A program made the translations under genes and the position numbers. The notes beneath the pieces were generated by a model. The model ran no database searches and had not been told where the DNA came from. It saw nothing but the letters and a program-made list of their open reading frames with translations. Shown in pieces: positions 16,231 to 22,163 of a stretch of DNA of 64,000 nucleotides (its first letter is position 1; each line of letters opens with the position of its first letter). This DNA is from the human T2T-CHM13v2.0 reference genome, Homo sapiens. The stretch lies in the NCBI RefSeq assembly GCF_009914755.1, contig NC_060933.1; one strand, given 5' to 3'.

Positions 16231-16346
16231 CTGCAGAGAGGCCAAAGCTGACCCCAGGTCTGTATTCATTTTGTGTCCTTCTGTCAATATTCCTAAAACT
16301 GCTCCAGGACCCCTGATTTATTGCCTCTACAATGGGCGTTGCTAAT
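16231..16346 (+). repeat. Donor arm of a ~120-bp dispersed inverted repeat (partner at 18329-18448)
   Basis: Reverse complement aligns to 18329-18448 at roughly 85% by eye. Confidence 0.92.
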
Positions 16347-17449
16347 ACAGATCACCTTGACAGGGGTGCTCTGAGGAATAATAGGTAAACAATTGTGAGG
16401 AGCTATATAAATGCTAAATAATGATCACAGTAATAACCTTTTATTCAAGTCAGTACTGTGATAGGCAGCTCACACTCGGATGCTTTGGCAAATGTGGAAA
16501 TCAATACGGCTGCTCCCTGAGCACACCAGCACCATCCTTTAAAATAGAAAAAATAAATGAGCCGATGATCATGATATTCAAAGTGGTTAGTGATCAAATA
16601 ACTGTCTTGAGAGAAAGCTGGTGTGTGAAGTGTAAAATGGGAGTAGCAACATAATGGCACATTGCAGCACAGACCAGCTAGAGGATAACTGGGAAATGCA
16701 ACTGGATGCTTGCTGGGGCACACTCTGCCCACTCCAGGATGAGTATTGTACCCTCATCAGGACAGGCGCTGCCACCACCAAAAGCACTGGCAGACAGAAA
16801 GTGGGATGAGAAAGAGCCGGATCAGCAACATCTTTGCCAGCAGCCCCATCTGGCCCTCTTGGCCTTAGTAAACCTCCCTGGGGGAGAACTAAGAAGCTGG
16901 TACCAAGGGCCCTCCCTTGGAAGGGCACCAAGGAAGTGGGGAGGGAGGGGAGGGGGGAATGAGCATTGCATTTTCTCCTTTCTAGAATGAAATATCTGAA
17001 ATATCCCAATGCCTGGAGAGGCTTCTGCAGTCTTCATAGTGGAGCTTCCCTATACAATTGCAGATAGGAATCCATCCTTCTAGTTGTTCCTCCTTTCCCT
17101 GAAACCCCCCTTCCTTCCTTTTCTCTAAATCTCTCCTCCCCCCAACATTATATTAACACTATAAAATTATAATTTTTGTGTGTCATACTATCTCTTTGAT
17201 ATAAATATCGATGTGCCTGAACATTCTTTCCTGACTCCCACCCCACATCAGCAATTATGCGGCCATATAGGGGCACATACACGTGTGCTCACACGTACAT
17301 GCACACACACACAGCCCTCCTTTGTTAAACCCTGGCTCAGTTATTACAGAATGCTTGTGGAGTGTAGGCCACATAGCAGAAAAATTTAAATTATAGTTGC
17401 TTCTTGTTGAAAAGCAGAAAGAAAGATAACAATTAAAAAAGCAGATATT

Positions 17450-17745
17450 GGCCGGGCGCGATGGCTCACGCCTGTAATCCCAGCACTTTGGGAGGCCGAG
17501 GCGGGCGGATCACAAGGTCAGGATTTCAAGACAAGCCTGGCCAATATGGTGAAACCCCATCTCTACTAAAAATACAAAAATTAGCCAGGCATGGTGGTGG
17601 GTGCCTGTAGTCCCAGCTACTCAGGAGGCTGAGGCAGGAGAATCGCTTGAACCCGGGAGGCAGAGGTTGCAGTGAGCCGAGATGGCGCCACTGCACTCCA
17701 GCCTGGGCGACAGAGCGAGACTCTGTCTCAAACAAACAAACAAAA
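17450..17745 (+). mobile_element. AluSg-like
   Basis: Dimer; TSD aaaaaagcagatatt. Confidence 0.93.
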
Positions 17746-18109
17746 AAGCAGATATTTATTTTAAGGCTGATATCTGACACTTAATACTTTGCTGCATATT
17801 GACTAATGCTCCATAGTGACTGAGCAAGTCACTTTTCCATGGTGGGACAGGTAGACTCCATATGCTCTCTGAGGTGCTATGAGATCCCAGTGCATATTTA
17901 ACCTTTTGAGGATTGGCTAGAAATGAGGGGGTTAAAAAAGAATATGGCAAGATAGTCTTAGTCTATAGGAAGTTATGGTTTAAATTTGAGTGAGGCAGGA
18001 TCAAGATCCTAGAAAAAGTCTAATTGATTTTAACCAAATGGGATAATATTCAAATGTTAACTATACTGTGATACTGTATTTAGAGTACTTGGGGCCAGTA
18101 TGCTATATG

Positions 18110-18586
18110 CAGTGGTCCCCTACATTTTTGGCACCCGGGACCAGTTTTGTGGAAGACAATTTTTCCATGGATCGAGGGGTGGGGAGGATGGTTTTGGGAT
18201 GAAGCTGTTTCACCTCAGATCATCAGGCGTTCGTTAGGTTCTCATAAGGAGCTGCAACCTAGATCTCTCGCATGAGCAGTTCACAGTAGGGTTTGCGCTC
18301 TTATGAGAATCTAGTCTCAAATTCTACAATTAGCAGTGCCCATTGTAGAGGTAATAAATCAGGGGTCCTGGGGCGGTTTTAGACATATTGACAGAAGGAC
18401 ACAAAATAAATAACCACTGACCTGGGGCCAGCTTTGGCCTCCCTGCAGAGGCCACCACTGATGTGCCAGGAGACGGAGCTCATGCTGTAATGCTTGTCAG
18501 CTGACTGCTCACCTCCTGCTGTGCGGCCCAGTTCCTAACAGGCCATGGACTGGTACAGGTCCCCCACCGGGGTGTTGGGGACCCAG
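18110..18586 (+). mobile_element. MER1B hAT element interrupted by a 135-bp insertion
   Basis: cagtggtcccctacatttttggcacc...gagaatcta | insert | gccaccactgat...gttggggaccc. Confidence 0.85.
18314..18448 (-). repeat. Inverted templated copy of 16231-16346 plus 15-nt filler
   Basis: attagcagtgcccattgtagagg...gctttggcctccctgcag is the reverse complement of the donor. Confidence 0.92.
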
Positions 18587-18842
18587 GCAGGACATAGTAA
18601 GTGCTCAGTAAAATTTCGGTTGTTAAGTAAGGTGTGGTATTGATTTCCATCTCCCAGTACCTCAGGCTGCTTATAACTGAACTCATATGTTCAAGTATAA
18701 CCTTTGTTCAAAGGCTTTATTCCAAAAATAGTCAATGGAGGAATCTGGGGAAAATTGTTCTCAGGAGATGTGGTTATCTTTATGGCCAAATCAGTCTAGA
18801 TTAGGTTGTTTCATTAGCAGGCATGTCTACATGGCTTCCAGA

Positions 18843-19155
18843 TTTTGTTTGTTTGTTTATTTGTTAGGTTTTTGAGACAAAGTCTCTCTCTGTCACCTAT
18901 GCTGGAGTGCAGTGGTGCAATCTCAGCTTACTGCAACCTCCACCTCCCAGGTTCAAGTGATTCTCCTGCCTCAGCCTCCTGAGTAGAAGGGATTGCAGGT
19001 GCCTGCCACCACATTCGGCTACTTTTTGTATTTTTAGTAGAGATGGGGTTTTGCCATGTTGGCCAGGCTGGTCTCGAACTCCTGACCTCAGGTGATCTGC
19101 CCACCTCGGCCACCCAAAGTGCTGGGATTACAGGTATAAGCCACCACTCCCGGCC
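18843..19155 (-). mobile_element. AluSx-like
   Basis: Dimer, (TTTG)n tail. Confidence 0.92.
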
Positions 19156-20247: not shown

Positions 20248-20545
20248 TTTTTTTTTTTTTTTTTGAGATGGAGTCTCGCTCTGTCACCAAGGCTGGAGTG
20301 CAGTGGTGTAATCTCGGCCCACGGCAACCTCCACCTCCCGGGTTCAAGCGATTCTCCTGCCTCAGCTTCCCAAGTAGCTGTGATTACAGGTGCCCACTAC
20401 CACAGCCGGCTAATTTTTGTATTTTTAGTACAGATGGGGTTTCACCATGTTGGCCAAGCTGACCTTGAACTCCTGACCTTGTGATTCACCACCCTTCTGC
20501 CTCCCAAAGTGCTGGGATTACAGGCGTGAGCCACCACGCCTGGCT
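20248..20545 (-). mobile_element. AluS
   Basis: Dimer; TSD tctgtagtgtcttt. Confidence 0.93.
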
Positions 20546-20769
20546 TCTGTAGTGTCTTTATAGCACTATCAGGTGCCATTTAACCATGCTAGTTGGCCAA
20601 CTCCTCTGACTTGCCAAGGTTTGTAGAAAAGTCAGTAATACTTGTCAAATGAATGAGTGAATGGGTATCAATTCCTAAATGCATACTAGTTTGGAAGTAT
20701 TGTATTGTATCAGGCACTTTACATAATACAAAATGTAAGGCTTAGTTCTTGGCTTAAGTAGTGCATCTT

Positions 20770-21077
20770 GGCTGGGCACGGTGGCTCAAGTCTGTAATCC
20801 CAGCACTTTGGGAGGCCAACGCGGGAGGACTGGGTTCAAAACTTGGTAAAACTGAGGTCAAGGGTTCGAGACAGAGCCTGGCCAACATAGTGAAACACCA
20901 TCTTTACTAGAAATACAAAAATTAGCCAGGCATGGTGGCATGCACCTGTAATCCCAGTTGCTTGGGAGGCTGAGGCAGGAGAATTGCTTGAACCCAGGAG
21001 GCGGAGGTTGCAGTGAGCCGACACGGTGCCACTGCACTCCAGTCAGCGACAGTGAGACTATGTCTCAAAAAAAAAAA
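20770..21077 (+). mobile_element. AluS carrying a ~22-nt foreign insertion at 20830-20851
   Basis: Dimer; TSD core tgcatctt; consensus TCAC replaced by ctgggttcaaaacttggtaaaa. Confidence 0.92.
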
Positions 21078-21453
21078 TGCATCTTCTCATATCCATCACT
21101 CACAAAAAGACTGTTTTAAAGTATCACAGAAAGCCAGACAAGGTTCACTATTTATTTTGGAAAACAAGAAGTCATCTCTTAAAATGAAATGTTAGTAAAA
21201 TATTGGTTACGGCAGTAACAGACATGAGCTAATACATCGTGGAAGTCGAATGCTTCATTGCTATCAGTGGGTTTTCTACCTAATGTCTTTATAAACAGCA
21301 AAATGCATAAAACAAGACAAATAACATAAAGTGAGCACTGAGGGAATCAACCCCCATCTCAAGGAACACAACTTTGACATGATCCCAGAAGCCTTGAGTC
21401 TCCTGTCTGTTACAATAAGCTTTTACTTATTTTTCTTTTTAAAATTGTACTAC

Positions 21454-21788
21454 TTTTTTTTTTTTTTTTTTTTTTTTTTTTTTTTTTTTTTTTTTTTTTT
21501 GAGACGGAGTCTCGCTCTGTCGCCCAGGTCGGACTGCGGACTGCAGTGGCGCAATCTCGGCTCACTGCAAGCTCCGCTTCCCGGGTTCACGCCATTCTCC
21601 TGCCTCAGCCTCCCGAGTAGCTGGGACTACAGGCGCCCGCCACCGCGCCCGGCTAATTTTTTGTATTTTTAGTAGAGACGGGGTTTCACCTTGTTAGCCA
21701 GGATGGTCTCGATCTCCTGACCTCATGATCCACCCGCCTCGGCCTCCCAAAGTGCTGGGATTACAGGCGTGAGCCACCGCGCCCGGCC
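21454..21788 (-). mobile_element. AluYb8 inserted in the tail of an older Alu
   Basis: 7-bp duplication ggactgcggactgc; ccgcttccc, caccttgtt, cctcatgatccacc; pure T47. Confidence 0.95.
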
Positions 21789-22092
21789 TTTTTTTTTTTT
21801 TTTTTTGAGACAGAGTCTTGCACTGTTGCCTGGGTTAGAGTGCAGTGGTGCAATCTCAGCTAACTGCAACCTCTGCCTCCCAGGTTCAAGCGATTCTCCT
21901 GCCTCAGCCTCCCTAGTAGCTGGGATTACAGGCATCTGCCATCACGCCCAGCTAATTTTTTGTATTATTAGTATATAAAATACTAATAATGTATATGTTG
22001 GCCAGGCTGGTCTCAAACTCCTGACCTTGTGATTCGCCTGCCTTGGCCTCCGAAAGTACTGGGATTACAGGTGTGAACCACTGCGCCCGGCC
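21789..22092 (-). mobile_element. AluS with internal palindromic replacement
   Basis: Dimer; outer TSD aaaattgtactac (21441-21453 and just after 22092). Confidence 0.9.
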
Positions 22093-22163
22093 CAAAATTG
22101 TACTACCTTTATAAACTACCCTAAATAAAGTTTAATTTTACCCAGTTTTGAACCCAAAATAGA

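What the first reader, a model, noticed from the sequence alone, without database searches (positions are those of the whole stretch)
16231..22156. Possible local hotspot of inverted template switching
Three independent inverted, locally templated events (donors ~2 kb, ~1.3 kb and ~10 bp away) fall within 6 kb. The same interval holds a strong G4 motif and two very young Alu insertions. Transposons with known consensus act as recorders that reveal such events. Inference: a recurrently breaking or fork-stalling germline site repaired by template switching. This is the best candidate for an undescribed phenomenon in the window, but three events is a small sample.
Basis: inference. Interest (0 to 1): 0.7.

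Follow-up and report, generated by a model that had tools for sequence, protein, structure and literature searches.

The report
Clustered DNA-repair scars copying nearby DNA
Three short stretches of human DNA inside old transposons are backwards copies of neighbouring DNA, likely scars of old germline break repair of kinds already catalogued; their bunching in 6 kb is probably chance, though a fourth scar and a third young Alu about 19 kb away hint at a possibly break-prone region.

Summary
All three events are real. E1: 135-nt insert in a MER1-type transposon; 120 nt are an inverted copy of 16231-16346 (87.5%, two copies genome-wide). E3: an 11-bp hairpin replacing Alu bases. E1 and E2 match 'repair-mediated duplications' (Pace 2009, 824 human cases found by the same transposon-recorder method); E3 matches short-range template switching. 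Independence is unproven: the divergences fit one age (p=0.45). A small background sample held an E1-like event, an E2-like event and 11 other such hairpins, which predicts about 300 (5-4000) equivalent 6-kb clusters genome-wide, so the cluster alone does not show a hotspot. The G4 is ordinary and 1.4-5 kb from the acceptors. In favour of a real excess: a catalogued inverted duplication lies 18.6 kb upstream (p about 0.015), with a third very young Alu between it and its newly found second donor. Verdict: known mechanism, new instances; chance about 0.48, modest regional excess about 0.37.

The parts
16231..16346 (+). E1 donor (single-copy sequence; copied in inverted orientation)
16938..16957 (+). 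G4 motif, four G-runs with 1-nt loops; 1.4 kb from the E1 acceptor, 3.9-5 kb from E2/E3; no role shown
18110..18586 (-). Host DNA transposon (MER1B-type; label recalled). Insertion point lies inside one arm of a long internal stem of the element's predicted fold
18314..18328 (.). E1 filler, 15 nt; its last bases match the donor's + strand over 8 nt (possible extra switch, unproven)
18329..18448 (-). E1 acceptor: inverted copy of 16231-16346, 11 mismatches in 116 columns plus 4 gap columns
19561..19582 (-). Probable second donor (B) of E2: 15/16 match, then 6/6 after a 5-nt gap, giving 5 nt of microhomology with the Alu at the right junction
   Evidence: score 14 vs maximum 12 in 115 background tiles
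19769..20089 (-). Very young Alu (Ya5-like; label recalled), full length, poly(A), target-site duplication 19760-19773 / 20092-20105; lies between E2 and donor B
20770..21079 (+). Host Alu of E2 (AluS-age); opposite-strand Alu 226 nt away
20830..20851 (+). E2 acceptor: 22 nt replacing about 4 consensus bases
21454..21788 (-). Very young Alu (Yb8-type; label recalled) nested in the poly(A) tail of the E3 host; lies between E2 and donor A
21789..22093 (-). Host Alu of E3 (AluS-age), target-site duplication at 21441-21453 / 22094-22106
21964..21994 (.). E3: perfect 11-bp hairpin (21964-21974 / 21980-21990) in a 17-to-22-nt AT-rich replacement next to the Alu A-rich linker
22136..22156 (-). E2 donor A, 20/21 inverted match; overlaps the target-site duplication of the next Alu
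821..1130 (-). Third very young Alu (3 mismatches in 282 to the one at 19808), target-site duplication 809-822 / 1130-1143; lies between the catalogued duplication just upstream of the window and its downstream donor
1457..1479 (-). Second, inverted donor (23/24, one gap) of the filler in the catalogued duplication whose acceptor lies at about -396 to -249, outside the window

Best explanation
The three inverted segments are real copies of neighbouring DNA, likely left by germline break or stalled-fork repair in which a free 3' end briefly copied a nearby strand and rejoined, and their bunching within 6 kb is most likely the chance tail of an ordinary genome-wide background. Shown: the inserts, their donors, their uniqueness, and equivalent events in random background DNA. 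Inferred: E1 and E2 are repair-mediated duplications (strand invasion or template switch 1-2 kb away, synthesis, release, end-joining with filler or microhomology; SDSA- or SD-MMEJ-like); E3 is a short-range switch or snap-back next to the Alu poly(dA:dT) linker. E1 likely formed well after its host transposon inserted, in the period of AluS amplification; E2 and E3 cannot be older than their AluS-age hosts. The young Alus are ordinary L1-driven insertions made tens of millions of years later, not repair patches.
For: Class match: donor distances 2.0 and 1.3 kb, 135-nt acceptor with filler, fit Pace 2009 (824 cases under 5 kb, mean 162 bp, mean distance 1.2 kb, filler 1-68 nt) and Sudmant 2015 (inverted duplications under 1 kb within 5 kb of the other copy). 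Background: in 16 random 10-kb stretches, one unique 162-bp inverted duplication 930 nt apart (L043) and one 26-nt inverted insert at a tandem-duplication junction, donor 1,069 nt away (L033); 11 other perfect hairpins with arms of 11 or more in 311 kb. Simulation: 308 clusters of two distant events plus a hairpin within 6 kb per genome (5 to 3,975 over the 95% interval of the rate). No further clear distant event in the other 58 kb of the window. Catalogued chr9 duplications (42) and 99 chr1 Ya5-motif sites are spaced as Poisson (KS p=0.99 and 0.31); Pace reported no trend to cluster.
Against: For one fixed 6-kb interval the cluster has p about 2e-4. In the Alu-recorder scan the two highest-scoring non-linker clusters among 198 copies are E2 and E3, and none of the 191 copies outside the interval showed a distant inverted non-Alu donor above its null, apart from one poly-T run. 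A catalogued inverted duplication lies 18.6 kb from E1 (p 0.012-0.015; three lie within 0.5 Mb, p 0.007). Three very young Alus fall within 21 kb (about 2.4 such triples expected genome-wide, 21 at a threefold local rate), and each sits between an acceptor and one of its donors. The background rests on two events, so the rate is uncertain about 30-fold.
Confidence: 0.48

Rival explanations
1. A real, long-lived regional excess: about 22 kb (window -400 to 22,200) has for 30 My or more received more germline nicks or breaks than average, recorded early as templated duplications and recently as human-specific Alu insertions; a shared cause could be accessibility to L1 endonuclease or fork stalling at poly(dA:dT) tails and inverted Alus.
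For: Pace linked duplication rate to L1 activity in time; 1.5-kb insertion clusters exist in NF1 (Wimmer 2011 abstract).
Against: No clear distant event in the 16 kb between the two sub-clusters or the 42 kb after, which a tenfold rate would likely have left; E1 and E2 breakpoints show no TTTT/AA endonuclease site (read from sequence); an opposite-strand Alu within 250 nt is common (17 of 111); catalogue spacing is Poisson; several features were looked at before these two stood out.
Confidence: 0.37
2. E1, E2 and E3 (or two of them) arose in one multi-switch replicative event (FoSTeS/MMBIR-like) over what was then about 3 kb, some 25-40 My ago.
For: Divergences are homogeneous (pooled 12/148 = 8.1%; p=0.45) and compatible with AluS-age hosts (non-CpG about 7% against the pooled consensus); all copies are inverted; E2 has two donors and E1 has patchwork junctions.
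Against: The DNA between the three acceptors is collinear; each class occurs alone in background; the test has little power (21 and 11 nt).
Confidence: 0.12
3. E1 was captured during transposase-induced gap repair while the host element was active, and E2/E3 are unrelated chance matches or assembly errors.
For: The insert sits inside a DNA transposon, in an arm of its internal stem.
Against: Donor-copy divergence 9.5% is half the roughly 19-20% expected if as old as the host (32/314 non-CpG; p=0.004); no other copy of the insert exists; no insertion of 6 nt or more at that site in 29 other copies; E2 is unique genome-wide; mismatches to donors argue against assembly error.
Confidence: 0.03

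Closest known systems
Repair-mediated duplications (Pace, Sen, Batzer, Feschotte 2009, PMC2671141)
   Same: Same method (interrupted transposon as recorder), single-copy donor under 5 kb, 50-619-nt acceptor, filler and microhomology, occasional two-donor chimeras; E1 fits fully.
   Different: E1 is not in their Table S1 (no MER1B row; no chr9 row at about hg18 83,665,450). E2 is below their 50-bp floor. They list one donor for the neighbouring event where a second is seen here.
Inverted duplications and locally templated inserts in human structural variation (Sudmant 2015, PMC4617611)
   Same: Duplicated stretch under 1 kb inserted within 5 kb, inverted; inserts at breakpoints with a local template within 10 kb; template switching proposed.
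   Different: Those are polymorphic and recent; E1 and E2 are old and diverged from their donors.
Short-range template switch mutations (Loytynoja and Goldman 2017; Walker 2021 PMC7954356; Loytynoja 2022 PMC9435742)
   Same: E3: mutation cluster explained by a reverse-complement template a few bases away, next to a poly(dA:dT) tract, creating a perfect hairpin.
   Different: E3 would be filtered out of those sets: it lies in masked repeat and the copied arm lacks one of the four bases.
SD-MMEJ / polymerase-theta templated insertions (Khodaverdian 2017, PMC5728401)
   Same: Patchwork junctions with short inverted and direct repeats near the break at E1 and E3.
   Different: Described templates lie within about 30 nt; the enzyme cannot be inferred from sequence, and 1-2 kb donors need strand invasion or a fork-scale switch.

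Membership tests
Repair-mediated duplication (E1) | Insert of 50 bp or more interrupting a transposon whose two parts are contiguous in the consensus | tested here: met
   135 nt after consensus position 202, no consensus bases lost
Repair-mediated duplication (E1) | Exactly one other copy in the genome, more than 50 bp and less than 5 kb away | tested here: met
   2 matches genome-wide, 1,983 nt apart
Repair-mediated duplication (E1) | Filler, microhomology or deletion at junctions; no poly(A/T) tail or target-site duplication | tested here: met
   15-nt filler at left junction; no tail or duplication
Repair-mediated duplication (E1) | Empty site in an outgroup primate | not testable with these tools
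   no primate relatives held
Repair-mediated duplication (E2) | Insert of 50 bp or more | tested here: not met
   22 nt; works like one, below the operational floor
Repair-mediated duplication (E2) | Unique donor within 5 kb | tested here: met
   2 sites genome-wide within one mismatch, 1,285 nt apart
Short-range template switch (E3) | Mutation cluster explained by a reverse-complement template within 100 nt | tested here: met
   11/11 arm, 5-nt loop; explains 11 of 22 replaced bases
Short-range template switch (E3) | Walker filters: copied fragment holds all four bases, donor unmasked, significant pair-HMM score | tested here: not met
   arm has no C and lies in an Alu; pair-HMM score not computed
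Mutational hotspot | Rate above background after allowing for genome-wide search | tested here: inconclusive
   5-3,975 equal clusters expected; unselected neighbours p about 0.015 and 0.06
Mutational hotspot | Events independent (different branches or haplotypes) | tested here: inconclusive
   divergences homogeneous, p=0.45, low power
Mutational hotspot | Measured breaks or stalling at the site (END-seq, DMC1-SSDS, G4-seq) | not testable with these tools
   no such data on hand

The most novel reading that the evidence does not exclude
A roughly 22-kb germline domain on 9q21 has stayed break- and insertion-prone for 30 My or more: four inverted templated scars, two of them drawing on donors on both sides, and three very young Alus, each landing inside an old acceptor-donor span. 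Old repair duplications would then mark places where L1 endonuclease or stalled forks still strike, giving a spatial counterpart to the known correlation in time between L1 activity and repair duplications.
Probability: 0.25. Interest if true: 0.65.

Novelty: new member of a known kind. Interest (0 to 1): 0.3.

Why it matters
As it stands: uncatalogued instances of known repair scars, showing that the 2009 catalogue is a lower bound (E1 and the background event L043 suggest roughly one per few hundred kb against 0.62 per Mb of transposon DNA) and that sub-50-nt, two-donor cases exist. If the regional excess is real, fossil repair duplications would predict where new mobile-element insertions and structural variants arise, and whether germline fragility persists over tens of millions of years becomes a cheap genome-wide test.

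Tried and rejected
Transposon capture and spread of the E1 insert: rejected (2 copies only; too young for its host). Donor being an interspersed repeat inserted twice: rejected. G4 as cause: not supported (11 standard and 3 strict motifs in the window; distance 1.4-5 kb). Recurrent insertion at the transposon's stem arm: none in 29 other copies. Donor for the E1 filler: only 8-mers within 3 kb, no 12-15-mer with 1-2 mismatches within 4 kb. Close inverted Alus as trigger: 226-nt spacing is common (17 of 111 within 250 nt). Base skew on Alu-masked DNA: mild T excess in most bins, no clear step. L044 palindrome rejected as a background event (dispersed family, 18 matches); L035 3293/3714 left out as probable transposon ends (recalled); L036 and L037 repeat arrays left out of counts; window 26607/32598 (22/25) treated as chance (cross-locus null gave 18 hits of 34 bits or more in 120 pairs, mostly repeats). 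Row 376 of Pace Table S1 was first suspected to be E1; it is a separate event. Literature search for inverted-Alu fork stalling returned 0 papers.
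Full report
Labels.

1. The observation. E1: self-comparison gives 16231-16346 against 18448-18329, 87.5% over 120 columns. Other genomic copies of the surrounding element match on both sides and skip the middle; against a consensus of 29 of them the window copy has a clean 135-nt insert, 18314-18448, of which 15 nt are filler. The insert has 2 matches in the genome, itself and the donor. E2: scanning 198 Alu copies of 90 nt or more (of 208 pieces; 50,437 bases; window plus 45 loci) for non-consensus runs gave 37 clusters; 21 were tested for a local template, 16 being A-linker expansions or under 7 nt. 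20830-20851 matches 22136-22156 inverted at 20/21 (score 18, null 2-7), and the 21-mer has 2 sites in 3.1 Gb within one mismatch. E3: 21964-21990 is a perfect hairpin with 11-bp arms in a 17-to-22-nt replacement (score 14, null 5-12). E3 is the weakest: AT-rich and only half explained by the arm. The G4 motif (16938-16957) and two very young Alus are present.

2. E2 has a second inverted match upstream, 19561-19582: 15/16, a 5-nt gap, then 6/6 that runs into 5 nt shared with the Alu's resumed sequence. It supplies the two bases donor A does not explain; it scores 14 against a maximum of 12 in 115 background tiles of 2.5 kb, and the 16-mer in either form has 11 sites genome-wide. I take it as probable, not certain; which copy is donor to which cannot be fixed without outgroups. 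E1's junctions carry short inverted and direct echoes (8 nt at the left, 7 nt at the right, an 8-nt patch equal to the right flank) that suggest repeated switching but are individually weak. The insertion point lies in an arm of a long predicted stem of the host element, yet none of 29 other copies has an indel of 6 nt or more there.

3. Age and independence. E1 donor and copy differ at 11/116 (9.5%, 95% interval 4.8-16.3); the host differs from consensus at 32/314 non-CpG sites, so the copy is younger than the host (p=0.004), barring gene conversion. The E2 and E3 hosts are AluS-age (16/213 and 15/209 non-CpG differences, slightly inflated by the inserts; median of 150 copies 6.5%). 11/116, 1/21 and 0/11 are homogeneous (p=0.45). 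Independence is therefore neither shown nor excluded. The young Alus are full length with poly(A); two have clear target-site duplications and one is nested in a poly(A) tail, so they look like ordinary retrotransposition, far later than E1.

4. Background. The sample was small: 16 stretches of 10 kb (the first 16 of a list drawn at random from chr16, 17, 19, 22), 29 loci of 3.2 kb, and the other 58 kb of the window. It held one E1-like event (L043: 162 bp, 88%, inverted, 930 nt apart, 2 copies genome-wide) and one probable E2-like event (L033: 23/26 inverted, 1,069 nt away, exactly between two tandem copies; 2 sites genome-wide within 3 mismatches, though the reversed control also gave 2). 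Perfect non-simple hairpins with arms of 11 or more: 12 in 316,887 bases including E3, against 0 and 1 in two shuffles. With an assumed effective length of 238 kb, two distant events plus a hairpin within 6 kb has p about 2e-4 for a fixed interval but is expected 308 times per genome (85 if only one background event is counted; 5 to 3,975 over the interval). A reader scanning the genome window by window will meet such clusters. Against this: no Alu outside the interval (0 of 191) showed a distant inverted non-Alu donor above its null, apart from one poly-T run matching an Alu tail. G4 motifs are common here (11 standard, 3 strict in the window).

5. What is known. Pace et al. 2009 (PMC2671141; read parts 1-5 of 8, passages, and searches of Table S1) used interrupted transposons to find 824 human duplications with donors under 5 kb, mean 162 bp, filler 1-68 nt, 20 two-donor chimeras, no trend to cluster, fastest rate 30-42 My ago, and suggested L1 endonuclease breaks from the match in time. 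E1 is not listed: no MER1B row, and none of the 42 chr9 rows of the under-5-kb sheet falls at its inferred hg18 place. Sudmant 2015 (passages) found 54% of sequenced inversions to be inverted duplications under 1 kb within 5 kb. Walker 2021 (abstract, passages, sections 11-12) and Loytynoja 2022 (passages) cover E3's class, with enrichment next to poly(dA:dT); both filter out masked repeats. Khodaverdian 2017 and Wimmer 2011 were seen as abstracts; Loytynoja and Goldman 2017 as a search listing. Searches showed no paper on co-location of repair duplications with young Alus; most subscription papers are outside the library, and the three other supplements of Pace were not read.

6. Evidence for more than chance. 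Row 376 of Table S1 (hg18 chr9:83,646,738; MIR host; all primates; 5.66%) maps to just upstream of the window: acceptor copy at -360 to -254, donor at -2145 to -2039, inverted, 94.4% over 107. It is 18.6 kb from E1 (p 0.012-0.015 at catalogue density, but 0.15 at my own sample's rate; three rows within 0.5 Mb, p 0.007), while chr9 rows overall are Poisson-spaced (KS p=0.99). Its filler has a second inverted donor at window 1457-1479 (23/24 with one gap; one search allows no gaps and found only the acceptor), so it shares with E2 the pattern of inverted donors on both sides. A third very young Alu, 821-1130, lies between that acceptor and donor. The two young-subfamily motifs have 2,159 and 2,627 genomic sites, one per 651 kb: three within 21 kb is expected about 2.4 times per genome, 21 at a threefold local rate; 99 chr1 sites transcribed from the 100 listed are Poisson-spaced. 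Each of the three sits inside an acceptor-donor span. Against a broad hotspot: no clear distant event elsewhere in the window, no endonuclease motif at the E1 or E2 breakpoints, and these two coincidences were picked from several features examined. My rough weighing is a likelihood ratio of 2-4 for a modest excess.

7. Mechanism. Most likely each scar is a broken or stalled 3' end that primed on a nearby strand of the same polarity, copied 11-120 nt in reverse orientation, let go and rejoined through filler or microhomology (inferred from the classes above). Donors on both sides in inverted orientation fit a switch to the other parental strand at a fork, or invasion of a sister, better than simple fold-back on one resected end (inference). 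The enzyme cannot be named from sequence.

8. Verdict. Observation largely confirmed; mechanism known; hotspot not shown. Chance cluster 0.48, modest long-lived regional excess 0.37, one complex event 0.12, other 0.03. New members of a known kind; interest 0.3.

Noticed in passing
window -396 to -249 (L049:7604-7751), donors L049:5855-5961 and window 1457-1479: Catalogued repair duplication (Pace Table S1 row 376) is inverted and has an unlisted second inverted donor 1.8 kb downstream, inside the RefSeq enhancer 1347-2127.
   Followed up: yes
window 821-1130: Third very young Alu, 3 mismatches in 282 to the one at 19808, with a 14-bp target-site duplication.
   Followed up: partly
L043:3430-3591 / 4521-4682 (chr17:77,313,333 and 77,314,424): Unique 162-bp inverted duplication, 88%, 930 nt apart; a background twin of E1.
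   Followed up: yes
L033:2002-2027, 3011-3246 (chr16:78.23 Mb): Tandem duplication of about 100 bp with a 26-nt inverted templated junction from 1.07 kb away, and a 33-nt hairpin patchwork 13 nt further on: a small cluster in random background DNA.
   Followed up: partly
L018:949-990 / 1295-1336; L029:333-402 / 1290-1360; L038:8656-8718 / 9915-9978: Short direct-orientation local duplicates (42 bp 90%, 71 bp 94%, 64 bp 81%) 0.3-1.2 kb apart; possibly the direct form of the same process.
   Followed up: no
L043:5792-5809; L010:86-95: Alu A-rich linkers containing T-runs, as expected from short-range inversion.
   Followed up: no
L006:1456-1598 / 1978-2115 (chr18:0.51 Mb): Two copies of the same MER1-type element in inverted orientation 380 nt apart.
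   Followed up: no
L025 (chr6:19.8 Mb), host consensus position 246: 40-nt insert in another copy of the element; origin not traced.
   Followed up: no
window 1-45,500: Alus are 34 of 45 on the minus strand; the bias fades after 45 kb.
   Followed up: partly
window 33432-33457, 36894-36920, 43442-43464, 48820-48859: Further short perfect or near-perfect hairpins outside the interval.
   Followed up: no
window 1-350 and 39059-39480: Alus with an extra left monomer or partial tandem duplication.
   Followed up: no
L036:3818-4931 / 7427-8572 (chr22:32.67 Mb): 1.2-kb inverted pair, 73%, flanking a GC-rich repeat array.
   Followed up: no
beyond window end, 71-153 kb: The annotation places the SPATA31D gene cluster about 50 kb past the interval; a link to local instability was not tested.
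   Followed up: no
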